From an uncultured Candidatus Peribacteria bacterium (GTDB lineage Bacteria; Patescibacteriota; Gracilibacteria; Absconditabacterales; Absconditicoccaceae), in the NCBI GenBank assembly GCA_964455295.1, contig CAYVXG010000003.1, positions 8,612-44,909 of the forward strand: 36,298 nt of DNA, given 5' to 3'. Positions 8,245 through 35,686 of this stretch are shown one piece after another. Under the pieces are notes generated by a model that worked only from the letters and a program-made list of their open reading frames with translations, had not been told where the DNA came from and searched no databases. The position numbers and the translations under genes were made by a program. Each line of letters begins with the position of its first letter. Position 1 is the first letter of the stretch.

Positions 8245-8259
8245 TTTTTTAAAAAAAAC

Positions 8260-9915: not shown

Positions 9916-9926
9916 TAAATTACTTG

Positions 9927-11648: not shown

Positions 11649-11786
11649 TTACTCCTTATCCTCTTAATATATGAAATAATTAAAAATTAATACAACATTG
11701 GCAAGTAAGTATACTACCTAATATCATTTAAAGTTTATAAAAAATTATCACTTCTATTATATTTTTTTAAGATTATAATTCATAAT

Positions 11787-12384: not shown

Positions 12385-13197
12385 CTACCCCAACAAATTC
12401 TTCCTCACTATTTCCACATCTTCTTTATAGGTAATCCCATATCGATTATCTTGAGCAATAAGAACTTCACACTCGAGAGAAAATTTCTTGATGAGTCGAT
12501 TGCAGTACAGACCAATATAGTATTCCTCTCATTCTTTGGCTGTAAGTTGCCATTTTTCAAACTCAGACTTGAGGTGAAGGAGAGTATGATCATGAAACAT
12601 CCAGAAATTCATGCTGGCGATAGATTGAGGATCAATGTTTTTTCCGTCTCTATCTTGTAAACCATCTGGAGTGCGAGTAATTCAGAATGTTTCCGTGATG
12701 GATTGAAGGTGATTGTCCTCTATAGTACAGATTCCTCTATTTACGCTTCCATTTTCACTGAGGGTTTTTTCTAGAATATACCCTATCATACCAAAAGTAT
12801 CTACCTTGCAATTTTCTAGTCGTCTGGAGGCTTGTTGCATACTATCAGCTCCGTAATAATCATCTGCATTGATAAGAAGACAGGGAGAGTGAAGAACTGG
12901 GAGAACACAAGAGAGTGCATGACCTGTTCCTCGAGGCTTAGTTCTTGGTTCTTCTATTTCTTGATATACATATTCTGTGTTTAAGATATCTTTATAGGTA
13001 TTTCAGATTATATTTTTAAAATCTTCTTCAATTTCTTTACGGATGATGTAGATGACATCAGTAAATCCTGCATGAATAGCATCTTGAAGTGTGAAATCTA
13101 GTAATGTTTCACCCTTATCTCCTATTCTTGCGATTTGCTTAATTCATCCAAATCTACTACCCATCCCAGCGGCAAGAATAATCAATGTTTTCTGCAT
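12385..13197 (-). CDS. sugar-phosphate nucleotidyltransferase (NTP_transferase family)
   Basis: Minus-strand ATG at 13195-13197 to TAG at 12385-12387 (270 aa, 4 TGA). N-terminus [17 protein letters not shown][G]IKQ, and LLINADDYYG. The start overlaps the lepA stop (TAATG). Track ORFs 12408-12593 and 12451-12660 are fragments or antisense. Confidence 0.8.
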
Positions 13198-14597
13198 TAT
13201 CTTTTCATCATATTGATAAATATATCGTTTGGTATACTCACTTTTCCGATTTCTTTCATTTTTTTCTTGCCTTCTTTTTGTTTTTCCAAAAGTTTTCTTT
13301 TTCTACTGATGTCCCCTCCATAACATTTGGCGAGTACATCTTTTTTGATAGCAGAAATAGTTTCTCTTGCGATAACCTTAGATCCAAAAGCTGCTTGAAT
13401 AGCAATACTAAACAAATGTTTAGGAATAAGTTCCTTGAGTTTTTCGCAAATCTCTATTCCTATCTCAAATCCTTTGGGTTCGTACACTACCATACTGAAA
13501 GCTTCCACTACTTCCCCAGCAATCAAAATATCAAGTTTTGCTAGATCGCCAACTCTGTAGGTTTTGAACTCGTAATTCATAGTTGCGTAGCCCTTTGTGA
13601 GTGATTTTAATTGGTCATAAAAATCAATAATAATCTCTCCGAGTGGCATTTCATATTTTCGTATTACTCTGTCGTCATTGAGAAATTCTGTTCCCTTGAG
13701 GATTCATCTAGCATTATTGCATAGCCCTGATATATTACCATAATATTCTGAAGGACCTACGACTTCCACCTCTGCGATTGGCTCAAGTATTTCGGCTACA
13801 TCGCCATTTGGTGGCATATCTCCTCCAGATCTCACGATCAACCAATCTTTCAAGATTTCTGCATATGTTTCTCTCACATAGTGAGGATCTTCGTTCATAA
13901 TTTCAATATTCGGATTCTTATATTTGAGAACAAATTTTCGTAAACCAGTAGCAATAAGATCGTCAATGTTCACTCCTGTTTTTACCGATTCATGTTTGAA
14001 ATTCTTGAGTCTTACGACGTATACTACATTGGGAATAGTGAAAATAGTCTGAATATTATATTCTCTTTCCAGTCTTTCCTTGACAATATCCATATGAAGC
14101 ATACCCAAGAATCCACAACGGAAACCGAATCCCATGGCTTTATTGTTTTCATACTCATATTCGATTGAAGAATCATTGATAGAAAGTTTTTCAAAAGAAT
14201 CTCTGAGTTTTTCAAATTCATTATTTGCTACAGGATATACTCATGCAAATACATAGGGTTTGATTTTACGAAAACCAGGAATTGCATAGGGGAGCAGAAG
14301 TTCAAAATCATTGTTGTAATTTACCCCGTCGATCAAAGTATCCCCAATTTTGATATCTCTTACAGACTTTGCACCTGTCACGATATAACCAATTTCCCCA
14401 GTATTGAGGCTTTTTACGATTTTATAGTTAGGATTGAAGTAGCCAACTTCAGTGATGGTAATTTTTCTTTCTGAATGGATAAGTGAGATTTGTTGATTAC
14501 CAAAAAACTGTCATTCCACAACTTTCACATAAGCAACCACGCCTTTGTAAGGATCATATACACAATCAAAGATAAGAGCTTTGGAAATAGTACTCAA
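13197..14597 (-). CDS. lepA: elongation factor 4 (LepA) lacking the entire N-terminal GTPase domain (5'-truncated; start codon uncertain, possibly TTG at 14595-14597)
   Basis: Fragments 13197-13649 and 13704-14135 plus upstream sequence are one frame (3 TGA, e.g. YVFA[G]VYP). Homology begins at [21 protein letters not shown] (about 14582), which corresponds to domain II. It continues through [26 protein letters not shown] to the LepA C-terminal domain ([24 protein letters not shown]). An in-frame TAA at 14622-14624 closes the frame upstream. No G1-G4 motifs occur in any frame of 14598-14785. Confidence 0.8.
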
Positions 14598-14785: not shown

Positions 14786-15241
14786 TTATTGAGTGTTTGT
14801 AATCAAGTTGATAACCCAGAATACGAAACTTACAAGTAACCAAGAGATACCAATCATGATAAGTCCGATACCAGCTTGTCTCAATATTGTGGATCCATCA
14901 CCGTAAGCTTTAGCGTCTCCAGCAGCAGTAAGCATTTTGAATCCAGCATAAAGACAGATGATCAAAGCAATAAGAGCTAATAATCCAAGTACCCAGTTGA
15001 TAGCGATTTTAACTGCGGCGATTAAACCTCCAGCTCCACCAGTATCAGCTTGACCTGCTTTAGCAACTCCTACTCCAGCTGCAGAGTCAGTTGTCTTAGT
15101 AAAGGTATTATTTCCATCAGTAGGTTGAGTGAATCCGCCAGCATTTCCTGCTCCACCATTGGCAAATGCAAATCCAAATAATCCTACAACTGCTACACTA
15201 GCAAGGAGCAATTGGGTACTAATTTTTTTTACGAGTTTCAT
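14786..15241 (-). CDS. T4SS-type pilin-like protein (TrbC/VirB2 superfamily, CPR/Gram-positive type)
   Basis: 151-aa ORF with no TGA. Signal peptide MKLVKKISTQLLLASVAVVGLFGFAFA, then a Gly/Ala/Thr-rich spacer, then two hydrophobic helices separated by a short polar loop (INWVLGLLALIALIICLYAGFKMLTAAGDAKAYGDGSTILRQAGIGLIMIGISWLLVSFVFWVI). This is the characteristic VirB2/T4SS-pilin layout. Confidence 0.6.
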   Translation of the reverse strand: MKLVKKISTQLLLASVAVVGLFGFAFANGGAGNAGGFTQPTDGNNTFTKTTDSAAGVGVAKAGQADTGGAGGLIAAVKIAINWVLGLLALIALIICLYAGFKMLTAAGDAKAYGDGSTILRQAGIGLIMIGISWLLVSFVFWVINLITNTQ

Positions 15242-15288
15242 TGTTTTTATGAATAATAAATAATAAAGTGTTTAATAAATACATTACT

Positions 15289-15317
15289 ATTATAATAACA
15301 TTCTTATTAAAATGCAA
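15289..15317 (-). promoter_or_regulatory. sigma70-type promoter of the pilin-like gene
   Basis: On the minus strand: TTGCAT (15312-15317), a 17-nt spacer, then TATAAT (15289-15294). The leader to ATG 15241 is about 40 nt. Confidence 0.65.
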
Positions 15318-15468
15318 ATTTATTGTACTCTTTTCATTATTTTTTTTCGTAATATCAAAAAAACGCCTACAAAAAGCGTAAATATTAATAGTATCAAATC
15401 TGTAGATTGATAGTTTTTGCAAGCATTTTGATAATAACTACTAAAAAACTCTCGTTTAATCTAGACTA

Positions 15469-15696
15469 TTATGCATCAATAACTTTGTTTTTTGATTTAA
15501 CTTTAATGGTAAGAACTTGTTTTCCATTATAAAACCCACATGCTTCGCAAACTCTATGAGGATATCTGGGAGCGTTACAGTTTTCACACTTTACAGCATG
15601 ATACTTAGCAACTAATCTTACGATATTCAAAGTTTGCCATTTGCTATGTCTTACGTGTTTTTTGAATAGGGATATTCTCTTCTTTGGAGCTAACAT
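15469..15696 (-). CDS. rpmF: 50S ribosomal protein L32
   Basis: MLAPKKRISLFKKHVRHSKWQ...CENCNAPRYPHRVCEACGFYNGKQV, with a CxxC...CxxC zinc ribbon. ATG 15694-15696 is preferred over the track's TTG at 15711. Confidence 0.9.
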   Translation of the reverse strand: MLAPKKRISLFKKHVRHSKWQTLNIVRLVAKYHAVKCENCNAPRYPHRVCEACGFYNGKQVLTIKVKSKNKVIDA

Positions 15697-15770
15697 TGAT
15701 AATAGTAACAATATAATAAAATATTTTATATTCAGATTTTAGTAGAGTAGGCGGTCGAGGAGTAAACTAA

Positions 15771-16055
15771 TTACGCTACATTTGGTACTACATGAGCAAA
15801 AGTAGTAAGATATACTCTTCCATTAAAATTTGTGATCTTCTTTTTAGTGAATTTCACAACCCCATCTATTGATGAATGAATTGTCCAATCTCTTCCAAGA
15901 TAGGTATTTTCACCACATCTATATTTAGTTCCTTTTTGTCTGATAATAATATTTCAAGCTTTTGCAACTTGACCTCAAAATAACTTTACACCACGATATT
16001 TTGGATTACTGGTCCATAGATTCTCTGCTTTTCCAGCGGCCTTTACGGTAGACAT
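15771..16055 (-). CDS. rpmA: 50S ribosomal protein L27
   Basis: ATG 16053-16055 to TAA 15771-15773 (94 aa). It is missed by the track because of 2 TGA. The sequence ...RGVKLF[G]GQVAKA[G][35 protein letters not shown] matches the L27 core, with both TGA on conserved Gly. Confidence 0.9.
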
Positions 16056-16088
16056 TTATTTAAATTAATACTAAATAGTTAATCACGA

Positions 16089-16116
16089 TATATAATTAAT
16101 TATCAGTTCATTGCAA
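16089..16116 (-). promoter_or_regulatory. candidate promoter of rpmA
   Basis: On the minus strand: TTGCAA (16111-16116), a 16-nt spacer, then TATATA (16089-16094). Confidence 0.45.
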
Positions 16117-16131
16117 GAGAACTTAGCATAT

Positions 16132-17800: not shown

Positions 17801-17833
17801 TACTTAGTGCATATTTATCTCATTTACCAGATA

Positions 17834-18850
17834 ATGAATAATCTGAATTTATTTATCTCTCGCCCAGAAATTTTGGAGCAAGATTCTGCAAAATCTACAG
17901 TAGAAAGTCCTGAAACTACTGAAGTTTCTCAGAAAACTGATAGCAAAGAACTTAATATTCAGATGAATAAAAAAATACAATCTTTACTCACTACACTTAC
18001 AAAAGACCCCATTTCTGATAAAAATTTAGATTTTGATAAGGAAGAAGATAGAAAACTTATTAGTCAAGCTTTAGATAAGCTCAGTCCTGAAGATAAAAAA
18101 AAGGAAAACTATAAAACCCTTACCTCCTATATTACAGAATTTAATACCAACCAAGAAAGCGCAAACAAAGCCTTGGATTCTTTTCAAATTAAACATAATA
18201 AATCATTAGATAATCTGAAACAACAGATTATTGATACTCCTAAGACAGAAGAAGATAAAAATAAAGTTTCAGGTGCTCCAAAAGTGGAAAATCAATCGGA
18301 AACTACAGAACAACACTCAGAAGCTCTTCCTTTTGAGACCCTAAAAAATACAGTATCAGAAGCAACAAAGGAACAAGTAGTTACTAAACTTAATAAATTG
18401 CTTGCTGAAGAGCTTAAAGATAATCCGAGAGCTCGAATTCCAGGAAAAAGTGTAGCTCGAGGAACTGAAAACGAAGGATCATTATGGATCCAAAAAGCAA
18501 TTAATATGGTTAATGGAGAAGATGTCCTTAGTGTTGATGGTAAGTTTGGTAACAAATCATATAAAGCAGTAAAAGACTTCCAAGCTACTCATAATCTTAC
18601 CAAAAAAGATGGGCTTGCGGGCAAAGAGACGATCACAGAACTTATTAAGCATATAAATACTATGCATCCTGATCCAAAGACAGCTCCGATAGATCAAGCA
18701 ATTGTGCCATCAGCATTAAATAAAGAAGTTGAAACGCCTTCAAATATCACTAATCCAGTAGAAAGTACGAGAGTGGAAGTAAAATTAGCTGGAAAAGAAC
18801 CTTCCCTCAAAGAAATAAAAGATGGAGCTACAGCTCTTACAGCTTACTAA
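17834..18850 (+). CDS. low-complexity Lys/Glu-rich protein with C-terminal peptidoglycan-binding (PG_binding_1-like) domain
   Basis: ATG 17834 (MNNLNLFISRPE...) is in frame with the track ORF. The C-terminal block GSLWIQKAINMVNGEDVLSVDGKFGNKSYKAVKDFQATHNLTKKDGLAGKETITELI fits the PG-binding repeat pattern (DGxFG..T..AV..FQ). Confidence 0.65.
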   Translation: MNNLNLFISRPEILEQDSAKSTVESPETTEVSQKTDSKELNIQMNKKIQSLLTTLTKDPISDKNLDFDKEEDRKLISQALDKLSPEDKKKENYKTLTSYITEFNTNQESANKALDSFQIKHNKSLDNLKQQIIDTPKTEEDKNKVSGAPKVENQSETTEQHSEALPFETLKNTVSEATKEQVVTKLNKLLAEELKDNPRARIPGKSVARGTENEGSLWIQKAINMVNGEDVLSVDGKFGNKSYKAVKDFQATHNLTKKDGLAGKETITELIKHINTMHPDPKTAPIDQAIVPSALNKEVETPSNITNPVESTRVEVKLAGKEPSLKEIKDGATALTAY

Positions 18851-20034: not shown

Positions 20035-20784
20035 GGGTCTAGACTAGTTGAGTATAAATTTTAAGTATTTTCAATAACTTCTTATACATATTTTCTCTTT
20101 GTAATCAACAATTAAATCTAAACTCTGATTCTTTGAGGTGTAGATTATATTTTTCTTTCTTTATGCCATTGAACTTATTGAGCCTCCTCTTGGTATAACT
20201 CCAATAACTCTCTATTCAGTTGATATGCTTTCAATTTCATCTACTAAACTCATTTGCACTATGGTTTACTCTATAGTGCTTTTCATATCATAAATCTACT
20301 AATCAATCATAACTCTTCCATCAATCTGTATTTATTATACTATCGTCATTCACTTTTCATCTTATTATTGGTAGCAATGTCTTTGATGATACATCATCTA
20401 TTATCTCTGTATATACTTTCCCATTTCTCTTTAATAATCCAAATACTTTTGTCTTCCCATATGCTCATCTTCATCTCTTTCATCTTACCCTTCTTGCTCA
20501 AAAATAACTCTCATCTATCTCTATCGTTCACTGCAATACCTCATTCTTCTCATATTCACTGTACTCATATATCACTTCTCTCATGTAATTGTACCAACTA
20601 TTCACTGTATTTCTGTCTATGCTAAGCAATCTACTTGTTTTTGATGCTGGTATATCTTCACAAAAATAACGTATTATTTTACGGCTTTCTATCGTTCATA
20701 AATGTGAACTTTTTCTATATGCGTTTTTGTAAGTCATAACCTAGTATATTCAAACAGTAAATGCTTGTCAACTAGTCTAGAGCC
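20035..20784 (-). mobile_element. IS1595-family insertion sequence, apparently intact (750 bp)
   Basis: Terminal inverted repeats GGGTCTAGACTAGTTGA (20035-20051) and the reverse complement of 20768-20784, GGCTCTAGACTAGTTGA (16 of 17 identical). The 8-bp direct repeats TTTTTTAA flank the element. It carries a single transposase ORF. Confidence 0.85.
20039..20737 (-). CDS. IS1595-family (ISXO2-like) DDE transposase
   Basis: ATG 20735-20737 to TAG 20039-20041, 232 aa. There are 14 in-frame TGA against about 4 GGN Gly codons. The translation shows EIDESYF[G]ARRVR[G]KR[G]R[G]AYGKTKVFGLLKRNGKVYT, INTD[G]WKSYD[G]L, HYRVNHS, HIN[G]IESYWSYTKRRL and LKESEFRFN. The track ORF 20254-20625 (+) is its antisense artefact. 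Confidence 0.88.
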
Positions 20785-22582: not shown

Positions 22583-23092
22583 ATGAAAAACTTATCAAAA
22601 CATTTCGCTAAGCTTAGTAAACAAGCTAGAAAAGCTTTTACCCTTATCGAAATTCTTATTGTTATTGCGATTATTGGTATCCTCACGATTGCTTTATTGC
22701 CAAGAATTCAAGGAGCTCAAGCAAGTGCAAGAAATACAGCTCGTAAAGCTGATCTCAATCAAATTGCAACTGCCTTAGCTGCTTACAATGGTGATAATGG
22801 TTCTTATCCAGAAAAGATTGAAGATTTGGCTGGTGATAATGGTTACCTCAAATCATTACCAAAAGATACTGGTAAGAAAGTAGTGTGTCCTGGCGTTTCA
22901 AGTGGAGATCCTACTAATTATTATTATGCTAGAAAAGGTGATGGTTATATTTTAGCTGCTTACATGGAAAAACAACCTGGAAATGCAAATGTAAATTATG
23001 TCGGTGAGTGTGGAGATAGTATGACTCCTAGTGATACTAAAGTTCCAACACGGACAGATAAGGCTAAATATGTAATTGAAGTACAAAATTAA
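22583..23092 (+). CDS. type IV pilin / pseudopilin (prepilin-type N-terminal cleavage/methylation domain)
   Basis: 169 aa with no TGA. N-terminus ...KQARKAFTLIEILIVIAIIGILTIALLP is the class III signal (Ala at -1, Glu at +5). AYNGDNGSYP is typical of PulG/PilE-like globular heads. Confidence 0.85.
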   Translation: MKNLSKHFAKLSKQARKAFTLIEILIVIAIIGILTIALLPRIQGAQASARNTARKADLNQIATALAAYNGDNGSYPEKIEDLAGDNGYLKSLPKDTGKKVVCPGVSSGDPTNYYYARKGDGYILAAYMEKQPGNANVNYVGECGDSMTPSDTKVPTRTDKAKYVIEVQN

Positions 23093-23108
23093 ACCTTATA
23101 AAAATTCT

Positions 23109-23136
23109 CTTGCAAAATATTTTTTTTTGATTAATA
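23109..23136 (+). promoter_or_regulatory. candidate dnaK promoter abutting the CIRCE-like repeat
   Basis: TTGCAA (23109-23114), a 16-nt spacer, then TAATAT (23131-23136). Confidence 0.35.
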
Positions 23137-23161
23137 TAGCACCTGATAATCTTAGGTGCTA
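23135..23161 (+). promoter_or_regulatory. CIRCE-like 9-N9-9 inverted repeat upstream of dnaK (putative HrcA operator)
   Basis: ATAGCACCT-gataatctt-AGGTGCTAT compared with the CIRCE consensus TTAGCACTC-N9-GAGTGCTAA. The AGCAC/GTGCT core and the 9-nt spacer are shared. It lies 70 nt upstream of ATG 23232. Confidence 0.45.
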
Positions 23162-23167
23162 TTTTTT
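23135..23167 (+). terminator. rho-independent terminator of the pilin gene (same hairpin as the CIRCE-like repeat)
   Basis: A perfect 9-bp stem (23135-23143 with 23153-23161) is followed by a T-run extending to 23167. Confidence 0.7.
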
Positions 23168-23231
23168 TATTGAATATTAATTGTAAGCAGAATCAGATTA
23201 TAAAATTATTTATTATATAAATTACTTATCA

Positions 23232-25151
23232 ATGTCATACATTATTGGAATCGATTTGGGTACAACAAACAGTTGTGCTGCGTATATGCTTAGTGATAGA
23301 GCAGAAGTAATACCGAATAGTGATGGAATGAGAACCACTCCGTCTGTAGTATATATCAAAGGAGATGAAATGTTAGTGGGTACCGCTGCAAAAAGAAAGG
23401 CAGTATTGGAGCCAAAGAACGTGATTTTTGAAGTAAAAAGATTTATTGGTAGAAAATATAGTGAACTTACGGAAGATGATAAGAAAGTTCCTTACACTAT
23501 CAAAGCAGGTGCTGATGGAGGAGTACTCATTGTTATTGATGACAAAGAATACAAACCAGAGCAAATTTCTGCATTCATTTTGAAAAAAATTAAAGAAGAT
23601 TGTGAAAAATTCTTGGGACAACCAGTTACTCAAGCGGTAGTTACTGTTCCGGCTTATTTCAATGATAGTCAAAGAAACGCTACGATGATATCTGGGGAAA
23701 TTGCTGGATTGAAGGTGGAAAGAGTAATCAATGAACCTACAGCAGCAGCATTCTCATATGGAGTTGATAAATCTATGAGTCATAAAGTGTGTGTGTTTGA
23801 CCTTGGAGGAGGAACATTTGATGCTACTATCATGGATATTGATACTGGAGAAGATGGTAAAACATTTGAAGTAAAAGCTACTTCTGGTGATACCCATCTT
23901 GGTGGAGCCGATTTTGATCAAAGAATAATCAGATGGCTCGCAGATCAATTTAAAGCTAAGGAAGGAGTAGATCTTACAGGAAACCCTATGGCTATGCAAA
24001 GACTTAAAGATGAAGCTGAAAATGCTAAAAAACAATTGAGTAGTGCCGATAGTGTAGAAATTAATATTCCATTTATTACTACAGTAGAAGGAACTCCCAA
24101 ACATATTCAAGAAACTCTTACAAGAGCAGCTTTTGAAAGATTAATTTCTGATTTACTTGAAAGATGCGTGAAACCCGTGAAATCATGTATCACTGATAGT
24201 GGATTGAAATCTTCAGAGATTGATGATATTATTTTAGTGGGGGGGTCTACAAGAGTGCCAGCAGTAATGAAATTGGTAGAAGATAACTTTGGTAAGATGC
24301 CAAAAGCAACAGTAAATCCTGATGAAGCAGTAGCTCTTGGAGCCGCAATTCAAGGTGGAATTCTTTCTGGTAATTCTAGCGTATCCGATATCTTATTGAT
24401 GGATGTGACTCCATTGAGTCTTGGTGTAGAAGTAGAAGGAGGGTTAACTCATGTTATGATCTCTAGAAATACAACTATTCCAGTAAAAAAATCTAATATT
24501 TATACTACAGCTGTAGATAATCAACCAGCTGTAACTATTCATGTTACACAAGGAGAAAGACCAATGGCTGGAGATAATAAATCTCTTGGTATGTTTAATC
24601 TTGAAGGTATACCACCATTGAGAAGAGGACAAGCCCAGATTGAAGTAACGTTTGATATTGATGCATCAGGTATCTTACATGTAACTGCACTTGAAAAAAC
24701 TACAGGTAAAGAACAAAAAATTACTGTACAAGGCGCTACAGGATTGTCAGATGATGATATCAAAAGAGCTCAAGAAGATGCCGAAAGATTTGCAGAAGAC
24801 GATAAGAGAAGATTAGAATTTGCAGAATCAAAGAATAAATTTGATCAAGTACTCTACCAACTCGAGTCTATGCTTGAGGAAAATAAAGATAAAATTCCTG
24901 AAGAAGAAAAAGCTAAAATCACTGAAATGATAGCTTCAGGAAATGAGCTCAAGAAAAATGAAGCTACTACAAAAGAAGAATTTGATGCTAAGCATGAAGA
25001 ATATCAAAAAGAAATCATGGATATGTATCAAAAATTCTCTGCAACTAACACTGCTCCTGGAACTGGAGCAAATCCTGACGACATCCTTGAACCAACTGAA
25101 GGGGAAACTAAGGAAGATAAGCCAGAAGATGGAAAAGTTATTGATGCATAA
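23232..25151 (+). CDS. dnaK: molecular chaperone DnaK (Hsp70)
   Basis: Intact 639-aa ORF with no TGA. Motifs IGIDLGTTNS, DLGGGTFD and VGGSTRVP, and an acidic C-terminal tail. Confidence 0.97.
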   Translation: MSYIIGIDLGTTNSCAAYMLSDRAEVIPNSDGMRTTPSVVYIKGDEMLVGTAAKRKAVLEPKNVIFEVKRFIGRKYSELTEDDKKVPYTIKAGADGGVLIVIDDKEYKPEQISAFILKKIKEDCEKFLGQPVTQAVVTVPAYFNDSQRNATMISGEIAGLKVERVINEPTAAAFSYGVDKSMSHKVCVFDLGGGTFDATIMDIDTGEDGKTFEVKATSGDTHLGGADFDQRIIRWLADQFKAKEGVDLTGNPMAMQRLKDEAENAKKQLSSADSVEINIPFITTVEGTPKHIQETLTRAAFERLISDLLERCVKPVKSCITDSGLKSSEIDDIILVGGSTRVPAVMKLVEDNFGKMPKATVNPDEAVALGAAIQGGILSGNSSVSDILLMDVTPLSLGVEVEGGLTHVMISRNTTIPVKKSNIYTTAVDNQPAVTIHVTQGERPMAGDNKSLGMFNLEGIPPLRRGQAQIEVTFDIDASGILHVTALEKTTGKEQKITVQGATGLSDDDIKRAQEDAERFAEDDKRRLEFAESKNKFDQVLYQLESMLEENKDKIPEEEKAKITEMIASGNELKKNEATTKEEFDAKHEEYQKEIMDMYQKFSATNTAPGTGANPDDILEPTEGETKEDKPEDGKVIDA

Positions 25152-28554: not shown

Positions 28555-28584
28555 AAAAAACTCACCAATCATGGTGAGTTTTTT
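28555..28584 (-). terminator. rho-independent (bidirectional-looking) terminator after the membrane-protein operon
   Basis: aaaaaactcacc (28555-28566) pairs with ggtgagtttttt (28573-28584). The loop is 6 nt, and A/T runs lie on both sides. Confidence 0.85.
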
Positions 28585-28600: not shown

Positions 28601-30685
28601 TTATCCAGTAAGATCTGAATATTTAATTTTGAATTTTGCTCCCATGGGTGCTCCTTTCCCATCTTTGGTGTAATCAGCAAATATAGTAGCAGGAGATTTA
28701 TTGGTAGCACTGTAAAATTCTTTAGAGAAGATTTTTTTCATAAATCCTCCAGCAGCTTGATTTGCGTCTGTATCAGCCCAAAACTTATCAATACTGAATG
28801 TTTTCTTTCCATCTTCACCTTCCACGAAATGTTTTGTTTTGTCATCATCCTTTTTGATGATTTTTTTACTCACCATATAGTCGTATCCACCAGCAGTGAT
28901 CCAAGAACTCAGTGCATTTCTCCATTGTGGGCTATCTCATTTGATAGTGGTTTTTCTGGAAATCATATTATCCATAATTCCTTTGAAGAATTTTTGTGAT
29001 TCAGCTTCAAAAGTAGCTACTTTTGTTTTATCTACAAGATTTGGATTGAGATCGGCTTCTTTGATTCCGAAATCTTTTTCCTTAAACGGCGCTGTTCCTC
29101 ATCGATTGATATCATAATCATATCATAATTTTCCAAGAATATTACCTTTGGTTTGTTCTGCAATATCAAACTGACTTCTTTGAGTTTGAGTAATCATATT
29201 ACCTCTAGCGATTCCTTCCACTTTGTTGAAGCCAAATTTGTCTCCGAGTTGATCCAAAGAGATATTTTTACCATCTACACCTAGTGGTAATTTGATGCCT
29301 GTGGTAATGGTTTTCTTTCCTGCATCCATAACCTTTTGTCCATAACTGGAAAGAAGACTGCTCGTAGAAAGTCCTACCCTAAATACAGCCCACAGAAGAC
29401 CCATAGTCATTACACAGATAATCAGATATCCAAAACTTCCCATTATTTGTTTGCTTGTATCTTCATAGACATTTCCATCAAATGTCATCTTTCCTCCTCC
29501 AGGAATGGTGATACTTTCATTGTCTACAGAAATCACTCCTCCATCCACATCATTCCAAAATTTGCTAGCGGCTCCAGAAAGGGACTCTACACTTGTCTGA
29601 TCATTTACTCCTTTGGTGAGAGCACCAAATAAACTGGCAATGGTAATGACCGCTAAGAATAAAGTTGCTGCTACCATAGCGGGTGCGAATATAGCTCAGA
29701 TTATATTTTTTATATCAAAATAATCATCTCCTCTTCCTCTTACTTTTCCTCGTAGAGCATCCAACCGCCCAATTCCTGCGCCTTCCATTCCTCGTCTCAG
29801 AGCAATAAAGGGAGCAAAAAGAAACCGCATCCAAATCATAAATATTCTAGCAAAATTTACGACGAGAAGAGCAATAATTGGGGTGATGAACATAATCATC
29901 AAAAATAGTTTCACTAAGAGTCAGATGGTTACAGATTTTAGTTCATGGGAATCTCCATTACTCGATAAGAAGTCAAAGATATGAAATACTCCGATTCAGA
30001 AATATCTGAGGGGTCAGGACATATTATCTGTAGTAGGAACAATATCTTCAATACTAAGTCCGTCTGTTCCATTACTGGTACAAGAAGGAGTAATGATATT
30101 TGATTTTCACTCAAAATCGATAATAATTTCTTTGGGTGGGCAAGCCATTTGTTCTAGTAGTGATTTCTTCACTGGGAGACTATCGATAATAGAAGAACCC
30201 ATATTGCTTACTCCCAGCAAGGCTAGAGTTCATAAGTCTACCATTGCAGAAAGTGCAAATCGGCTCAGATTTACTGCAAGGGTAGTAATAATCAGTTTGA
30301 CAATTTTAGTACCCAGACCTTTAGTGCCACCTTTGGTGATAACATCCCAAATAATAGTAAGTATTACTCCTACGATCACAAAATTTACTATCGTTCTTGC
30401 AAGGCTCCATCCTTGAAATAAGAAGTCTGCAATCTTGAGTATCTCTCCTGTTACCAGTGAGTTGGTCATGAATTTACCTGCAAGATTAGTAATAGGAATC
30501 CAGATCCATGACAATATTTTCACGAAGGTATCCATTTTTTCTGCAAGATTTTGCTCTACGGTAGAGCCATCTGTAGCAAATGCATAAAACCCATATCCAA
30601 AGAGGAGTATAATCAGACTTATGAGAATGGTATTTTTTGCTTTATTCATAGGTAGGTTAATAATTGAATGTTTAATTTCCTTCAT
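28601..30685 (-). CDS. large polytopic membrane protein A (VirB6/TrbL-like topology, tentative); paralogue of the upstream gene
   Basis: Track ORFs 30230-30685, 29696-29914, 29123-29677 and 28601-28876 and the gaps between them are one frame (694 aa, 9 TGA). There are multiple TM segments, a Cys-containing extracytoplasmic loop and a hydrophilic C-terminal domain. It shares the blocks NSLVTGE, W..R/M..NF/SF.IV..IL..IWDVI and SAMVDLGT with protein B. GGAAGGAG lies 9 nt before ATG 30685. An alternative start is ATG 30647-30649 (MNKAKNTILISL...). Confidence 0.75.
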
Positions 30686-33329
30686 CTTCAGTGTCTCCTT
30701 CCTCTGTCGATCCAGTAGGTGCAGTAATGTTAAGTGGTGGAATTCTAGGTGGATTTTTTATTCTAAATATCCTTCCATCAGAATATACTTCTCAATCATT
30801 ACTAGTATTTAAATCTTTTATTCCAAAATAATCTTTTACATGTGTATGTAAGACTTCTTCATTCTTCACAAAGTCGTTTATCTTTTGATAGTTTTTATTA
30901 AGATTGGACTTATCTACGTTGAAGGCTTGTTCCAATGAGTAGATATTGTTTGTGGTATCGGCTTTTGTAGTATAGAATACCATCTCATTATCATATGATT
31001 TTATAGTATTGTTATTGTTTGCACTTGAAATACCTCCAGTTCTTATCTGTTGTATTCCTTTACTCATATTATTTCTCAACTCTACAATATTCTTAGGTCC
31101 TACAAGTCTGCTTGCTATGCTATCTTCAGTTTGAGCTTCTCTGAGAACTTTCAGTACTCTTTCACTATTTTCAGACTTAGCCATAGCTTTCCAGAAATTA
31201 TCTTGTGTTACGATTTCACTTAAATTATCTCCCGTCACATTCATGGCTTTATCTCCTGTAAGTTTACTCCAGTTAGCCACATCCTCTTTATTGAGATAAT
31301 GGAAGTTTCTGTTTTCTGCTCCTAGACTAATAATTCCATTTGCCATAGTATCTGCTGCCACCTGATTTTTGTTAGTGTCTGGACTATCAAAACTTTGACT
31401 CAAGGCAAATGTCTTATTATGTTTACCTTTTTCCTCAGATCCTGGTAAGCGAGCTTTGGTGTAAGATACCAACTCTTCAGCTGCATCCTTAGTTTTATCT
31501 TTAGTGATGTTTTTCATAATTTCTCCTGGTACTCCACGATCCATATCTGTAATTTGTTTAATACTATCTCGACTCAAGGCTCAGTTTGGACCTGGGAAGA
31601 TTGGTCTACTGCTCAAGTAATCTTCTCCAAATGATTCCATTTTTCTAGTAATATTTTGAGTCATTTTTGAAGCTCCCAATGCCATAAACATCAGTTTTCG
31701 CATAATCATAATTCAGAATATATTTGCTATAATCCAGCTAAAGTAATCAAAGAAAATACTGGTAGAATATTCCGCACTGAACTTTTTCATTTTAATGTCT
31801 GTAATTTTATCTCCTTTGTCATCTACTGTGCTGAAAATCTGATACTCATCGTCTGAATCAATATTTATACCTATTGCTTGAAGTAAACCTGCTTTATCAG
31901 AGTCATACTTCAACATATTATTGGTAGCATTGAGGAAAACAATAGATAATCAGAGGGCTAAGACTACAATTACAGGTTGAAAGATAACATTAATAATGTC
32001 AGATACTCAGGTTTTAAAATTCACCATATCTAGCCAGTTGGATTCAAGTTTTTTACTCATATCTCCGCTTATTCCTTTTCCTTTAAATACCTCATTCAGT
32101 GCTAAGAGTGGTGAAAAAGCTATCACCATTCGCAATATTCCTATTCTTGCTATACTTACAAATGCAAGTGTGATAAGTGGGATAATCAGAAGTATTCCTG
32201 TTATTGCCTTGATAAGGAAGAGCATAACTTCAGTTTCTGTAGATTTTCCACTCACGGTTACATTGAGACTTGTGAAATTGAGTAAAGACCCATATACAGT
32301 ATATAAAGGTCCCACCATAGACTTTGATTTATTAATCAAATCTCCAATAGTACTACAATCTGACATTTCTACTGACCCTTCTTGAAGGAGCTGAGTAAGT
32401 CCTGTTCTACTAGAAATATTGGTGGTATAATCTACTTTCATGAGGGCAGTAGGAGAAAGCGCACAAAATCATTTTCCATTTTCTATACTTTCAGCCATTC
32501 CTTGAGTACTTGTGGAAGTATACTTCCCCTTTTCTTGTTCTATATATTGATTCCAAGAATCTTCATTGATAACATTGTCTTCAAATTTACATGGAAGATA
32601 AGTTTTTGTGGGGTTTTCAGCACAAGAAAATGTAGTATTAAATCTGAAAGTACTTTGTTTTTGTGCCGTAGAGGCACTTGTATCTGCAAGATTGATGATA
32701 CTGCTATTTACCAATATTTTAGTATCATCATTGCTGCTAATAAGTGTAAGAGGTATAGCTCCTACTTGATAGATTAAAATAGTACTTAAATCAATAAGAG
32801 CTGATACTATAAACCAACTAAGAGGAATAAATACACCTGCTAATATCCAAGATTTTATTTTATTGGGTAAATCTTTATAAGGGTCTCCGTCTTTTTTTCG
32901 GATCATCTTTACAATATCCCATAATATCATTGCTGTTAGTACTATGAAGGAAATCTGCATCATGATAGTCCAAAATTTTCTGAGAGTGGTCGTGAGACCA
33001 AAAGCTTCACCATATACCAAACTATTATCCAAAGCCATCCCTGTTATCGCTAGCAAGGGTCGTATGATGATATATAGAGTATTGAGAATAATATCCAACA
33101 AGGAAGCAAGATCATTGAGCGATTTATTAGTGCTTGCATCTGGAGCAGCATTACTTGCATTTTCTGCTAATTGTTGAGCATATTCTTCGCCATTTATTAC
33201 AGGTTGAGCTCGTGCTTTCAGACTTAGAACTGATTCGTCAGGAACAAAAAAGGAATGATGAAAGCCAAAATTTCCTAAGCCAATTCCGACTGCTACTATT
33301 AATCAGATTATTATTTTTTTTATATTCAT
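30672..33329 (-). CDS. large polytopic membrane protein B (VirB6/TrbL-like topology, tentative) with a ~350-aa hydrophilic C-terminal domain
   Basis: ATG 33327-33329 to TAA 30672-30674. Track ORFs 32469-33101, 32007-32441, 31713-31916 and 30792-31577 are all one frame (885 aa, 7 TGA). Features: N-terminal anchor MNIKKIII[G]LIVAVGIGL, at least 6 further TM segments, a 4-Cys loop, and a Pro-rich acidic end. It overlaps the protein A ATG by 14 nt. Confidence 0.75.
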
Positions 33330-33375
33330 AAGAACTGTGTGATTAGTATGAAGAGAGGTATTTTTCCCTTGTTTG

Positions 33376-33404
33376 TTTATACTTAAAATACTAAATTTTG
33401 TCAA
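33376..33404 (-). promoter_or_regulatory. promoter of the two-gene membrane-protein operon
   Basis: On the minus strand: TTGACA (33399-33404), a 17-nt spacer, then TATAAA (33376-33381). The leader to ATG 33329 is about 40 nt. Confidence 0.65.
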
Positions 33405-33486: not shown

Positions 33487-33499
33487 TGCTTTGTGTTGC

Positions 33500-35686
33500 A
33501 TGTCGTATAGTATAAGAAAACCTCAAGAAATAGTTTTAAAGCAAGATTTTTTCGGTAAAGAACTTATAATTAGATCGGGAATATTGGCTCCAAATTGTGA
33601 TGGAGCTGTAAGAATTAAGCTGGGTGGTACTGAAGTGTTGGTAACAGCGGTTATGAAAAGAAATCCTAATCCAGATAAAGATTTTCTCCCTTTGACTATC
33701 GATTTCCGTGATAGTAATCATGCTGTGGGTAAAATTGGAGGAGGCGCTTATAGAAAAAGAGAAGGAAGACCTACTGAAATGGTGACCTTGTATGGAAGAA
33801 TTGTAGATCGTACCCTTAGACCTATGTTTCCTAAAGGTATGATCAATGATATCGTAATTAGCGTAACCCCCCTTTCTTTTGATAAAGAGAATGATCTGGC
33901 AACACTTGGTATACTTGGAGGGTCTTTAGCAACTTTGATGGCAGGAATTCCATTTGATGGACCAGTAAGTGGAGTGAGAATCGGATTTACGAAAGCCCAA
34001 ACTAGTGAAAATGAAGGAAAAGTTTCTGTAGGAGATTTTGTTATTAATCCATTGGTAGAAGAATTTGAAAATAATGGTCTCAACTTATTAGTAAGTGGAA
34101 AAAAAGGGAGTATGAATATGATAGAGATGGATGGTATGGAAATTGATGAAGAGACGCTCAGGAAGGCTTTTGAATATGGTCAGGAAGCTACAGACCTACT
34201 CTGTGATATCCAGAGTAAATATTTGGCAATGATTCAGCCTAAGGATCTTTCAGGATTTGTAGCAATCAACTACCCATCTGATGAACTCAAGGCAGAAGTA
34301 GCTCAGCTTATTCCTCATGCTGATATGGAGAAATTCTTCAAAGGAACAAAAGATGAGCGAGATGCTTTATTTATTGAATATAGAAAAAGACTGAGAGATA
34401 AATTTGGACCTTTACTTGAAAATAGAGATGATATAGAATTAGCAGCAAAATACACTTGGGAAAAAGTAAATATGGCTCTGGAATTGCAGGTGAAAGAATA
34501 TTATAAAGAGCTTATTTTAGATAAAAATATAAGAATAGACGGAAGAGCTATGGACGAAATTAGGCAATTGTACTGTGAGGTGGGAATATTGGATAGAGTT
34601 CATGGAAGTGCCTTATTCCGAAGAGGAGATACTCAAATTTTGAATACGACTACCTTGTGAGCACCTGGAGATGTACAATTAACCGATGATATGATGAATG
34701 ATGGAACAGAAAAAAGATATATGCATCACTACAACTTTCCACCATTCTCAGTAAATGAAGCTATGAGAATTAGAGGAACAGGAAACCGTGAAATAGGACA
34801 TGGAAGATTGGCGGAAAAAGCACTTGAGTTCATGATTCCATCAAAACAAGATTTTCCTTACACGATTAGACTAGTTTCAGATTGCTTAGCAAGTGGAGGG
34901 TCTACGAGTATGGGTTCAGTCTGTGCGAGTACGCTCAGTCTTATGGATGCAGGAGTACCAATCAAAAAACCAGTTTCAGGAATAGCAATGGGAATTTGTT
35001 CACGTACTAATGATCAAGGAATTCCGTCAGAATATAAAGTTCTTATTGATATTCAAGGAGCAGAAGATCATAATTGTGATATGGACTTCAAAGTTGCAGG
35101 TACGCCCGATGGTATTACAGCAATACAACTTGACATGAAAATCAGAGGAATAACAGTGGATATGGCTATGGAAGTAGTTCAAAAAGCTAATATTGCTAGA
35201 CTAGAAATTATGGAATTCATGCTTCAAACTCTTGCTAAGCCAAGATTGGAATTATCAGAATTTGCTCCAAAAATTACGGTAATACAAGTAGATCCTTCAA
35301 AAATAAAGATTGTTATTGGAAAAGGAGGAGAAATGATTGATAAGATTATTGCAGAGACTGGAGTAAAAATTGACTTTGACGATGAGGGAACTTGTATGAT
35401 TACGAGTAGAGATGCCAAAGCAATTCAAAGAACCATCGAAATTATTCAAGATTTGACGTATGAACCCAAAATTGGAGATGAATTTGATGGAGTAATTACA
35501 AGAATTGAAAATTATGGAATATTTGTGAAATATACAAAAGATAAGATAGGATTATCAGGAGCAAGAAACTTAGGACTCAAATTTGGAGAAAACCCAGCAA
35601 CATTTTATAAAATAGATCAACGTATTAGAGTAAAAATTGTAGGAATTACTCCTGAAGGGAAAATTGACTTACAGCCAGTAAAATAA
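33500..35686 (+). CDS. pnp: polyribonucleotide nucleotidyltransferase (PNPase)
   Basis: Track ORFs 33491-34660 and 34691-35686 share a frame and are joined through TGA 34658-34660 on the conserved Gly of ...ILNTTTL[G]APGD.... Two RNase PH cores (DRTLRPMFPKG; GHGRLAEKAL; GGSTSMGSVCASTLSLMDAGVP), a KH domain (IGKGGEMIDKI) and an S1 domain (GDEFDGVITRIENYGIFVK). Start at ATG 33500 (MSYSIRKPQE). Confidence 0.95.

What the first reader, a model, noticed from the sequence alone, without database searches (positions are those of the whole stretch)
28601..33404. Operon of two giant paralogous polytopic membrane proteins hidden by TGA fragmentation: candidate VirB6/TrbL-like conduit or novel envelope machine
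Eight track ORFs collapse into two overlapping minus-strand genes, B (885 aa, 30672-33329) and A (694 aa, 28601-30685). They are driven by TTGACA-17-TATAAA (33376-33404) and closed by a strong terminator (28555-28584).

The two proteins share an N-terminal module with three conserved blocks:
- AGKFMTNSLVTGE in A and TGMALDNSLVYGE in B.
- W..R..NFVIVGVILTIIWDVI in A and FW..MQISFIVLTAMILWDIV in B.
- LSAMVDLGT in A and VSALIDLST in B.

Each then has a Cys-containing exposed loop, further TM bundles and a long hydrophilic C-terminal domain. That domain is unrelated between the two proteins and unrecognisable to me. Gene B's stop overlaps gene A's ATG by 14 nt, with GGAAGGAG in front, which suggests translational coupling.

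The topology resembles extended VirB6/TrbL proteins. Together with the VirB2-like pilin, the PG-binding protein and the type IV pilus parts in the same window, this looks like part of a cell-surface or host-contact apparatus that has not been characterised in this phylum.
Basis: partly seen in the sequence, partly recalled or inferred. Interest (0 to 1): 0.72.

Follow-up and report, generated by a model that had tools for sequence, protein, structure and literature searches.

The report
Tandem divergent VirB6-like membrane proteins
Two neighbouring genes of an uncultured SR1 (Absconditabacterales) bacterium, which look broken only because this lineage reads TGA as glycine, encode a conserved pair of large membrane proteins that are probably the highly diverged VirB6 core subunits of a type IV secretion system, a part a recent survey could not find in this bacterial class.

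Summary
Under genetic code 25, the fragmented minus-strand ORFs merge into gene B (30672-33329, 885 aa) and gene A (28601-30685, 694 aa). All 16 internal stops are TGA. The promoter-like site, the terminator and the 14-nt B/A overlap are present.

A and B are genuine paralogues across the whole membrane core (hhalign E=3.5e-46). Their C-terminal domains are unrelated.

The family is large and unannotated, with 4,997 representative clusters. A B-type gene directly precedes an A-type gene in all six genomic contexts examined.

The VirB6/TrbL reading is partly supported, by weak evidence that points the same way:
- Three family members hit Pfam TrbL/VirB6 in one conserved block. One of them scores above Pfam's curated threshold.
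- A Mycoplasma conjugation-protein model hits the same block.
- The AlphaFold model of A finds DotA and TrwI/VirB6 among its top four PDB matches, although the E-values are not significant.
- The inferred topology and domain layout match extended VirB6 proteins.

Evidence against:
- A and B themselves do not hit TrbL.
- A profile comparison with the TrwI clade fails.
- No VirB4 or VirD4 gene lies nearby in any context.
- The proposed link to the pilin, peptidoglycan-binding and pilus genes in the window is not supported.

Verdict: a new variant of a known kind, at confidence about 0.6.

The parts
30672..33329 (-). Gene B: 885-aa B-type extended VirB6-like polytopic membrane protein, with 7 TGA = Gly codons
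   Evidence: Open under code 25. Full-length homologues of 750-1007 aa exist. AlphaFold2 model has mean pLDDT 65.7.
28601..30685 (-). Gene A: 694-aa A-type paralogue with 9 TGA = Gly codons; an alternative start at Met13 (30649) is used by some gene calls
   Evidence: Paralogy to B: hhalign E=3.5e-46 over 448 columns. AlphaFold2 model has mean pLDDT 62.0.
33249..33329 (-). B signal peptide or signal anchor (about aa 1-27)
   Evidence: Hydrophobic segment at aa 5-24. Most family members have VFA|Q-type signal-peptidase sites at this position.
32775..32978 (-). B TM1, basic loop and TM2 hairpin (aa 118-185); this is the shared N-terminal module
   Evidence: Hydropathy. The 145-157 loop has 20.8% K+R across the family, which places it inside. 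Sub-threshold PF18895 hit at B 112-178, 24.8 bits against a cutoff of 26.6. The hit is not reproduced at family level.
32241..32774 (-). B large extracytoplasmic loop (aa 186-363) carrying Cys236, Cys247, Cys289 and Cys325
   Evidence: All 145 aligned members have at least 2 Cys here. C247 and C289 are present in 142 of 145.
31872..32291 (-). B TrbL/VirB6-like conserved block (aa 347-486: TM3, the 'FSP' helix and TM4) with invariant P384, R395, P407 and P452
   Evidence: PF04610 hits of P0029 (26.8 bits, above the 25.9 cutoff) and P0026 map to B 347-486 and B 365-469. The NF045848 hit of P0040 maps to B 306-419.
30675..31574 (-). B-type C-terminal hydrophilic domain (aa 586-885), alpha/beta, no recognisable family
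   Evidence: pLDDT 65-89 over about aa 620-840. No Pfam, NCBIfam or PDB match. Almost Cys-free across the family.
29531..29995 (-). A TrbL/VirB6-like conserved block (aa 231-385)
   Evidence: Mapped through alignment A4 from the PF04610 hit of P0029. Aligns with the B block at E=3e-6.
28604..29323 (-). A-type C-terminal hydrophilic domain (about aa 455-694), unrelated to that of B
   Evidence: The hhalign alignment ends at about A 504 and B 624. No family hits.
33376..33404 (-). Promoter-like site: TTGACA, 17-nt spacer, TATAAA, 47 nt upstream of the B ATG
   Evidence: Read directly from the sequence. Such sites are not enriched in the region as a class.
30672..30702 (-). B/A junction: GGAAGGAG (30695-30702), then the A ATG (30683-30685) overlapping the B stop by 14 nt
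   Evidence: Junctions in relatives: 17-nt overlap (L003/L004), 1-nt overlap (L009), 33-nt gap (L002).
28555..28584 (.). Intrinsic terminator hairpin (CTCACCA-TGAT-TGGTGAG plus T-run), 17 nt after the A stop

Best explanation
A and B are an anciently duplicated, co-transcribed pair of highly diverged 'extended VirB6' (TrbL/VirB6 superfamily) cytoplasmic-membrane proteins. They belong to an Absconditabacterales (SR1, code 25) bacterium.

Shown here:
- Both genes are intact under code 25.
- They are homologous across the whole membrane core.
- The B-then-A order is fixed in every relative examined.
- Sequence statistics across the family indicate this layout:
  - a cleavable signal peptide, so the mature N-terminus is outside;
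  - a two-helix hairpin with a basic cytoplasmic loop;
  - a large disulfide-bearing outside loop;
  - a three-helix block that carries the TrbL-like signature and four invariant residues (P384, R395, P407, P452);
  - a 250-330 aa type-specific C-terminal domain, predicted to be cytoplasmic.

Inferred, not shown:
- By analogy with the VirB6 and DotA pentamers, A and B co-assemble into the central membrane platform or protochannel of the Patescibacteria-type T4SS.
- The VirB4 ATPase would dock on this platform from the cytoplasm, possibly through the C-terminal domains.
- The outside loops and N-terminal helices would form the base for substrate passage or for polymerisation of a VirB2-like pilin, such as the one encoded at 14786-15241.
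- The pair would then be the 'missing' VirB6 of class Gracilibacteria.
For: 1. Curated-model hits fall in one block and one register.
- P0029 matches the A/B profile at E=3.9e-163. It hits PF04610 TrbL at 26.8 bits, above the curated cutoff of 25.9, with E=5.4e-6. Its residues 339-467 match profile positions 77-202 of 215 and map to B 347-486.
- P0026 hits TrbL at E=0.0085 and maps to B 365-469.
- A third member among the 55 scanned also hits at E<=0.01.
- Expected false hits at E=5.4e-6 over 55 proteins are about 3e-4.
- At E<1e-4, the only Pfam families hit by any of the 55 members are TrbL and T4SS_pilin.

2. NCBIfam NF045848 (MMCAP2_0566 family conjugal transfer protein) hits P0040 at E=1.3e-4. 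The match maps to B 306-419, overlapping the same block.

3. Foldseek search of the A model against 350,542 PDB chains.
- Rank 2 is the DotA-IcmX protochannel. The review PMC12857230 treats DotA as the VirB6 equivalent.
- Ranks 4, 8, 10, 19 and 37 are TrwI/VirB6 chains of the R388 stalk.
- Those chains have the highest target-normalised TM-scores in the list (0.38-0.52; all others are 0.35 or lower).

4. Topology across 145 members.
- Cys residues occur only in loops 186-363 and 474-524.
- K/R-rich loops lie at 145-157, 415-441 and just after TM5.
- This gives N-out, five TM segments, a large loop between TM2 and TM3, and C-in. That is the published A. tumefaciens VirB6 topology (my own knowledge: Jakubowski et al. 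2004).

5. The architecture matches the definition of extended VirB6. [quoted passage not shown]

6. A survey of 3,035 Patescibacteria genomes found VirB6 'scarce or absent' in Gracilibacteria, 'suggesting extreme sequence divergence'. In the same class, TrsD and VirB3 genes are mostly not located near virB4 (PMC12102498).

7. The organism belongs to that class. Code 25 is supported, and a member of the DnaK 90% cluster is named Candidatus Absconditabacterales bacterium.

8. A B-type gene directly precedes an A-type gene in the window and in L001, L002, L003/L004, L008 and L009. The junctions are overlapping or tight in four of the six.
Against: - A and B themselves give no TrbL hit even at E<=1.
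- Only about 3 of roughly 85 scanned family members hit TrbL. Two of these are far below the curated threshold.
- hhalign of the family, or of the P0029 subfamily, against a 122-sequence TrwI-clade alignment is not significant (E 0.2-0.5). It is no better than reversed-sequence controls.
- HMM searches of PDB sequences find no VirB6.
- All Foldseek E-values are 0.5 or higher, and the B model does not list VirB6 in its top 50.
- The models are of only moderate confidence (pTM 0.45-0.47).
- Helical membrane bundles can reach TM-scores near 0.5 by chance.
- No VirB4, VirD4 or other recognisable T4SS gene lies within about 10 kb in six contexts. The conserved neighbours are TatD, a Metallophos protein and an operon for a giant protein.
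- The near-absence of Cys in the supposedly cytoplasmic C-terminal domains (0.04% against a 1.02% background) is unexplained.
Confidence: 0.6

Rival explanations
1. A and B form a lineage-specific envelope complex that is not part of a T4SS. One possibility is a dedicated exporter, anchor or assembly platform for the giant surface proteins and Cys-rich secreted proteins encoded next to the pair in several relatives. Any resemblance to VirB6 would then be remote shared ancestry, or the generic similarity of helical bundles.
For: - In L001, L002 and L008 the pair lies next to a conserved array. The array encodes a giant protein (4011-5323 aa), four conserved domain-less proteins (the three L008 members with several Cys each) and a Metallophos protein.
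- In L001 and L008 the array and the pair are on the same strand, with gaps of 66-134 nt before B.
- No T4SS ATPase is linked in any context.
- Most family members show no TrbL signal.
- hhalign against the TrwI clade is negative.
Against: - The giant-protein array is absent from the window and from L003/L004 and L009, although the pair is intact there.
- The only curated models hit below E=1e-4 are T4SS or conjugation membrane proteins. The TrbL and NF045848 hits fall on the same conserved block.
- VirB6-class structures are the best structural matches of A.
Confidence: 0.25
2. A and B form a T4SS-derived or unrelated membrane channel for uptake of host DNA or nucleotides. It would work with the neighbouring nucleases or phosphoesterases (TatD, Metallophos), by analogy with VirB6-like ComB6 in the Helicobacter ComB uptake system.
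For: - TatD lies directly next to the A gene in the window, L002, L003/L004 and L008.
- A Metallophos gene directly precedes B in L001, L002 and L008.
- These bacteria must obtain nucleotides from hosts (PMC8080830).
Against: - The TatD orientation varies: same strand in the window and L003, convergent in L002 and L008.
- In the window a strong terminator separates A from TatD. TatD is therefore not an obligate co-transcript.
- TatD is a widespread cytoplasmic housekeeping enzyme.
- Metallophos is absent next to the pair in the window lineage.
- There is no direct evidence for transport of any substrate.
Confidence: 0.1
3. The merged ORFs are decaying pseudogenes or assembly artefacts, and the long reading frames arise by chance.
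For: Under the standard code the region is split into about ten short ORFs. Some public pipelines report only fragments.
Against: - All 16 interruptions are TGA, and there are no TAA or TAG stops and no frameshifts.
- TGA aligns with Gly in orthologues.
- No gene in the window ends in TGA.
- Thousands of full-length homologues share invariant residues.
Confidence: 0.01

Closest known systems
VirB6/TrbL family (Pfam PF04610): A. tumefaciens VirB6 and R388 TrwI (PDB 7O3V, 8RT9, 8RTD)
   Same: - Polytopic inner-membrane proteins with an outside N-terminus.
- A two-helix N-proximal anchor.
- A large outside loop after TM2.
- A following hydrophobic block containing a basic residue and a helix-breaking (G/S)P motif.
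- Family members hit the Pfam model in that block.
- TrwI chains have the best target-normalised structural match to model A, with TM-scores up to 0.52.
   Different: - A and B are two to three times longer (694 and 885 aa, against 295-342 aa).
- They carry a cleavable signal peptide, a Cys-stabilised outside loop and a 250-330 aa C-terminal domain.
- Neither passes the Pfam model itself.
- The profile comparison with the TrwI clade is negative.
- They are not encoded in a virB-type operon.
Extended VirB6 proteins of Rickettsiales (RvhB6a-e; Anaplasmataceae VirB6-1 to VirB6-4). The subfamily definition comes from PMC12857230; the Rickettsiales details rest on my own knowledge (Gillespie et al. 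2009/2010; Bao et al. 2009).
   Same: - Tandem arrays of paralogous, very large VirB6-like genes with big hydrophilic extensions.
- T4SS genes scattered around a reduced genome of an obligately host-dependent bacterium.
   Different: - Rickettsiales are diderm Alphaproteobacteria with an MPF_T system, and their VirB6 domains are recognised by standard models.
- Here the host is a monoderm CPR bacterium and the sequence is far more diverged.
- The array is a fixed B-then-A pair, with a third copy in L001.
MPF_FA VirB6 homologues of Gram-positive conjugative elements (for example TcpH of pCW3 and ConG of ICEBs1), described as 700-900 residues in PMC12857230
   Same: - Monoderm setting and similar size.
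- An N-terminal polytopic region followed by additional hydrophilic domains.
   Different: - Those proteins are single-copy and lie inside conjugation operons next to VirB4 and the coupling protein.
- The VirB4 proteins of Patescibacteria group with MPF_FATA, not MPF_FA (PMC12102498).
DotA of the Legionella Dot/Icm system (PDB 9NGY), treated as the VirB6 equivalent in PMC12857230
   Same: A large polytopic protein forming a pentameric protochannel. It is rank 2 among PDB matches of model A.
   Different: The match is not significant (E=1.0, TM-score 0.12-0.15). DotA belongs to an MPF_I-type diderm system and pairs with IcmX.
NCBIfam NF045848, MMCAP2_0566 family conjugal transfer protein (Mycoplasma integrative conjugative elements)
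   Same: A weak hit (E=1.3e-4) on the same conserved block in family member P0040. Tenericutes elements belong to MPF_FATA, the class from which the Patescibacteria T4SS is thought to derive (PMC12102498).
   Different: The score (21.3 bits) is far below the curated cutoff of 90. Only 2 of 55 members hit. The role of that Mycoplasma protein was not checked here.

Membership tests
TrbL/VirB6 (Pfam PF04610) | Significant match to the curated family model | tested here: inconclusive
   A and B give no hit at E<=1. Among family members, P0029 scores 26.8 bits (cutoff 25.9, E=5.4e-6), P0026 scores E=0.0085, and one more member scores E<=0.01. The two hits mapped (P0029, P0026) lie in the same block and register, B 347-486. 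About 82 of 85 scanned members do not hit.
TrbL/VirB6 (Pfam PF04610) | Profile-profile similarity to bona fide VirB6 sequences | tested here: not met
   hhalign of A4, of the core block and of the P0029 subfamily against the TrwI clade plus A. tumefaciens VirB6 gives probability 0.1-0.3% and E 0.2-0.5. Reversed controls score equal or better. The template was narrow (at least 51% identity), so this is a weak test.
TrbL/VirB6 (Pfam PF04610) | Polytopic topology: N-terminus outside, about 5 hydrophobic helices, large outside loop between TM2 and TM3, C-terminus inside | tested here: met
   Hydropathy. Family-wide K/R, D/E and Cys distribution by loop, and signal-peptidase sites. A six-TM alternative is not fully excluded.
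TrbL/VirB6 (Pfam PF04610) | Fold similarity to solved VirB6 structures (TrwI; DotA as equivalent) | tested here: inconclusive
   Model A: DotA at rank 2 (E=1.0); TrwI chains at ranks 4, 8, 10, 19 and 37 (E 2-7, target-normalised TM-score 0.38-0.52). Model B: no VirB6 in the top 50. Model pTM is 0.45-0.47.
TrbL/VirB6 (Pfam PF04610) | Encoded with VirB4 and other T4SS genes | tested here: not met
   No VirB4, VirD4, VirB3 or VirB8 domain within about 10 kb in the window, L001, L002, L003/L004, L008 or L009. This feature is reported to be relaxed in Gracilibacteria (PMC12102498).
TrbL/VirB6 (Pfam PF04610) | Co-occurrence with VirB4 in the same genome; assembly into a pentameric stalk or platform | not testable with these tools
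   Only about 20-36 kb stretches of each genome could be read. No multimer modelling or whole-genome look-up was available.
Extended-VirB6 subfamily (definition in PMC12857230) | [quoted passage not shown] | tested here: met
   B has 885 aa with a central loop of about 180 aa and a C-terminal domain of about 300 aa. A has 694 aa with a central loop of about 100 aa and a C-terminal domain of about 240 aa.
VirB2-like T4SS pilin (Pfam PF18895), considered for the shared N-terminal module | Match to the pilin model, reproducible across the family | tested here: not met
   B 112-178 scores 24.8 bits against a cutoff of 26.6. Only 1 of 55 members hits. The family N-module profile against the window pilin g13 gives hhalign probability 3.7%, against 5.0% for an unrelated TM protein.
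Genetic code 25 recoding (as opposed to pseudogenes) | In-frame TGA only, aligned with Gly in relatives, and never used as a terminator | tested here: met

The most novel reading that the evidence does not exclude
The A/B pair may not be a conventional T4SS translocon subunit. It could be the membrane core of a VirB6-derived surface machine specific to code-25 CPR predators. In this reading, a hetero-oligomeric A/B platform exports or anchors the giant fibrous surface proteins and Cys-rich partners encoded beside it in several lineages. The unusually Cys-free, type-specific C-terminal domains would themselves be pushed out or exposed to contact the prey cell, as proposed for the C-terminal domain of F-plasmid TraG. 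That would be a new functional class descended from VirB6.
Probability: 0.12. Interest if true: 0.8.

Novelty: new variant of a known kind. Interest (0 to 1): 0.55.

Why it matters
T4SS genes, including virB6, are essential for epibiotic growth in the one Patescibacteria species where they have been tested genetically (PMC12102498 and PMC12857230, citing Wang et al. 2023). The only phylum-wide survey could not find VirB6 in class Gracilibacteria.

If this family is that missing subunit, three things follow:
- About 5,000 clusters of metagenomic proteins, with no Pfam domain on any of the 22 first-found homologues and no name beyond 'hypothetical protein' in the clusters examined, would gain a function.
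- VirB6 in these predatory or parasitic bacteria would be an obligatory two-paralogue, extended form. That parallels the Rickettsiales arrangement in an unrelated, monoderm, host-dependent lineage.
- The type-specific C-terminal domains and the Cys-stabilised outside loops become concrete targets for studying how SR1 bacteria contact and exploit their hosts.

The case also shows how use of the standard code, together with strict HMM coverage rules, can hide core machinery in recoded genomes.

Tried and rejected
- HMM searches of PDB sequences with 17-sequence and 145-sequence family profiles returned only noise and no VirB6.
- Foldseek with the full-length B model found nothing significant. 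There was a recurrent but very weak scatter of beta-lactamase/PBP-fold hits (E>0.5, TM-score about 0.2). I do not trust these, because the C-terminal region shows almost no family-wide conserved residues and so no conserved catalytic motif.
- hhalign and hmmsearch against a TrwI-clade alignment built from the last homology search were negative. Reversed-sequence controls scored as well or better.
- tblastn of the TrbL-like block of P0029 against 72,556 plasmids gave no match.
- Sampling plasmid VirB6 diversity by tblastn returned mostly Rhizobiales sequences, so I abandoned the attempt to build a broad VirB6 profile.
- The hypothesis that the N-terminal module is a pilin-like hairpin was rejected at family level.
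- I looked for VirB4-like ATPases among the conserved neighbour proteins in L008, L003 and L009. Six had no Pfam domain, and the seventh (L009) is a Wzy_C O-antigen ligase, not an ATPase.
- The reference-genome scan returned a single close relative with an uninformative title.
- The T4SS survey's supplementary table was cut in storage. The part I read held no Gracilibacteria rows.
- tRNA and Rfam scans of the window found nothing.
- The pseudogene and frameshift explanation was rejected.

Full report

Gene B (30672-33329) has 7 and gene A (28601-30685) has 9. Neither has an internal TAA or TAG, and both end in TAA.

Three results show that TGA is a sense codon here:
- All 27 genes I could call in the window end in TAA or TAG.
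- In codon-aware alignments with orthologues from five other loci, TGA aligns first with TGA and then with Gly. Ser, Asn and Ala follow, and Trp is not among the 12 commonest.
- A member of the 90%-identity cluster of the window's DnaK is named Candidatus Absconditabacterales bacterium.

This is the SR1 lineage, which uses genetic code 25. Public collections hold full-length calls of both proteins, and also 120-250 aa fragments from pipelines that used the standard code.

The other sequence features are as described:
- TTGACA, a 17-nt spacer and TATAAA lie at 33404-33376.
- GGAAGGAG sits 9 nt before the A start codon, which overlaps the B stop by 14 nt.
- A 13-pair hairpin with a T-run lies at 28555-28584.

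There are two caveats. Promoter-like sites as a class are not enriched in this AT-rich region (24 found against 22.1 expected). Some gene callers start A at Met13, which would remove the overlap.

**A and B are true paralogues, and the pair is ancient and fixed**

BLASTP gives two collinear blocks between A and B, at E=2e-9 and E=3e-6. Family profiles align over 448 columns at hhalign probability 100% and E=3.5e-46. The alignment covers everything from the N-terminal helix to just past the last TM helix. The C-terminal 250-330 residues do not align.

The word-indexed search found only 22 relatives. An exhaustive profile search then found 4,997 representative clusters at E<=1e-3 and 569 at E<=1e-30. 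The best 150 are nearly all full-length, mostly 700-1000 aa. None of the 22 first-found homologues carries a precomputed Pfam domain, and no source names the clusters I looked up beyond 'hypothetical protein'.

In the window and in five further independent contexts (L001, L002, L003/L004, L008, L009), a B-type gene is immediately followed by an A-type gene on the same strand. Orthologues group by type. The junctions are a 14-nt overlap, a 17-nt overlap, a 1-nt overlap, a 33-nt gap and a 105-nt gap. One junction is hidden by a scaffold gap. L001 has a third copy. A fixed gene order across lineages that share only about 25-30% identity argues that both proteins are needed together, most simply as one complex.

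**Anatomy and topology**

Across 145 aligned members, in B numbering:
- Cys occurs almost only in loop 186-363. Every member has at least 2 Cys there, and C247 and C289 are present in 142 of 145.
- Cys also occurs in loop 474-524, where 54% of members have at least 2.
- Loops 145-157 and 415-441 and the stretch after the last TM helix are K/R-rich.
- The N-terminal region, loop 100-117 and the two Cys-bearing loops are acidic.
- Most members have VFA|Q-type signal-peptidase sites.

The consistent reading is a cleaved signal peptide and an outside N-terminus. TM1 (118-144) and TM2 (158-185) then form a hairpin, followed by a large disulfide-bonded outside loop. Next come TM3 (364-392) with an interfacial helix, TM4 (442-473), a small outside loop and TM5 (525-551). 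The C-terminal domain is inside.

AlphaFold2 models residues 364-404 of B, and the equivalent stretch of A, as one long helix. That fits this count of TM helices.

Five residues are invariant in all 145 sequences: S171, P384, R395, P407 and P452.

One point remains unexplained. The C-terminal domains are almost Cys-free, at 0.04 per 100 residues against 1.02% in the other window proteins. That is unusual for a cytoplasmic domain. It keeps open the possibility that this domain is exported, or that the topology differs from the one inferred.

**Is it VirB6/TrbL-like?**

Direct tests on A and B are negative. Neither hits Pfam TrbL even at E<=1. HMM searches of PDB sequences find nothing.

Evidence comes from the wider family:
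- Scanning 55 diverse members against Pfam gave only two families below E=1e-4, TrbL/VirB6 and T4SS_pilin.
- The best TrbL hit is P0029. It scores 26.8 bits, above Pfam's curated cutoff of 25.9, with E=5.4e-6. Its residues 339-467 match profile positions 77-202 of 215.
- A second mapped hit, P0026, has E=0.0085 and falls in the same register.
- Both map to B 347-486, the block that holds the invariant P384, R395, P407 and P452.
- An independent NCBIfam model for a Mycoplasma conjugal-transfer protein family hits P0040 at E=1.3e-4. That match maps to B 306-419 and overlaps the same block.

Structural comparison gives a weak result in the same direction. Foldseek with the A model returns no significant match. 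However, rank 2 is the Legionella DotA-IcmX protochannel, and ranks 4, 8, 10, 19 and 37 are TrwI/VirB6 chains of the R388 stalk. Those TrwI chains have the highest target-normalised TM-scores in the list, at 0.38-0.52. A 2025 review treats DotA as the VirB6 equivalent. [quoted passage not shown] It notes sizes of 700-900 residues in MPF_FA systems (PMC12857230). A and B fit that definition.

The negative results must be set against this:
- Profile-profile comparison with the only bona fide VirB6 alignment I could build is not significant. That alignment is a narrow TrwI clade plus A. tumefaciens VirB6, and reversed-sequence controls score no worse.
- The B model does not recover VirB6.
- Most family members do not hit TrbL.

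**Context**

No VirB4, VirD4, VirB3 or VirB8 gene lies within about 10 kb of the pair in any of the six contexts. The recurrent neighbours are:
- TatD, in the window, L002, L003/L004 and L008. Its orientation varies, and in the window a terminator separates it from A.
- A Metallophos protein upstream of B, in L001, L002 and L008.
- In those same three loci, an array encoding a giant protein (4011-5323 aa) and four conserved proteins with no recognisable domain (the three L008 members with several Cys each).

The window's VirB2-like pilin (14786-15241), its peptidoglycan-binding protein (17807-18850) and its type IV pilin (22583-23092) lie 6-14 kb away, behind housekeeping genes. None of them accompanies the pair elsewhere.

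The lack of linkage to T4SS genes is less damaging than it would normally be. A survey of 3,035 Patescibacteria genomes reports that in Gracilibacteria the TrsD and VirB3 homologues are mostly not near virB4. The same survey found VirB6 homologues 'scarce or absent' in this class, 'suggesting extreme sequence divergence' (PMC12102498).

**Conclusion**

The most likely explanation, at confidence about 0.6, is that A and B are a co-expressed pair of highly diverged extended VirB6-type subunits. The pair probably fills the VirB6 gap reported for class Gracilibacteria. By analogy with the TrwI and DotA pentamers, it would form the central membrane platform of the Patescibacteria-type T4SS.

The gene structure, the paralogy, the fixed pairing, the topology signals and the weak TrbL link are shown here. 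The assembly, the ATPase docking and the role in pilin or substrate handling are inferred.

The main rival (0.25) is a lineage-specific envelope machine tied to the giant-protein operon, with only remote or superficial similarity to VirB6. A nucleic-acid uptake role with TatD and Metallophos is less likely (0.1). Pseudogenes are excluded.

The finding is a new variant of a known kind. It is of moderate interest as it stands, and of higher interest if the Cys-free C-terminal domains or the giant-protein linkage reflect a new function.

Noticed in passing
window 3462-5580 (+): Two adjacent genes look foreign to a monoderm CPR genome. The first (3462-4193) has a Bacteroidota-style signal peptide (…CFIAYGNAQQ). 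The second (4351-5580) ends in a type IX secretion C-terminal sorting domain (PF18962, E=5.5e-10). They contain 0 and 1 TGA codons, whereas many neighbouring genes contain several. This may be horizontal transfer from a Bacteroidota host or prey.
   Followed up: partly
window 13197-14597 (-), with 15242-16131 (-): The LepA/EF4-like ORF is only 466 aa and starts at the equivalent of domain II, so it lacks the GTPase domain. The upstream space holds the pilin gene and then the genes for ribosomal proteins L27 and L32, not a LepA N-terminus. It may be a truncated remnant or a split gene.
   Followed up: partly
window 14786-15241 (-): A stand-alone VirB2-like T4SS pilin (PF18895, 26.7 bits, at the 26.6 cutoff) lies between the L27/L32 genes and the LepA remnant, with no other T4SS gene beside it. 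Its 90%-identity cluster is seen on many contigs.
   Followed up: partly
window 6538-12287 versus 22583-25151 and 33491-35686: TGA (Gly) usage is very uneven. A low-GC block (GC 0.25-0.30) uses TGA for up to about two thirds of Gly codons. Examples are 14 TGA against 17 GGN in the gene at 6538-8244, and 7 against 3 at 8875-9330. DnaK, PNPase, UvrB and both pilins have 0-1.
   Followed up: no
window 20039-20737 (-): An IS1595-family transposase (PF12762, E=4.5e-29) has 14 in-frame TGA codons in 232 codons, against only 4 GGN codons. This mobile element is therefore fully adapted to code 25.
   Followed up: no
L008 1-9867; L001 1-9935; L002 5934-7133 and 12704-19922: A conserved array lies next to the B-A pair in three distant relatives. 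It encodes a giant protein (4011-5323 aa; a weak FG-GAP hit in L008), then four conserved proteins of about 280, 470-560, 410-490 and 680-700 aa. The four proteins have no Pfam domain in the L008 representatives I scanned, and three of those have several Cys. A Metallophos protein lies directly upstream of the B gene in all three loci; in L001 and L008 it follows the four proteins.
   Followed up: partly
B aa 586-885 (window 30675-31574) and A aa ~455-694 (28604-29323), and the same regions across the family: The C-terminal domains are almost free of Cys. The figure is 0.04 per 100 residues over 145 proteins, against 1.02% in the other window proteins. All Cys are confined to two loops. This is unexplained if these domains are cytoplasmic.
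   Followed up: partly
L003 6426-7217 and L004 3111-3902: In the closest distinct relative, a TraX-family (PF05857) gene lies directly upstream of the B-type gene. TraX is the F-pilin acetylase family, though it occurs widely. This gene is absent from the window, where PNPase is divergently transcribed from the same position.
   Followed up: no
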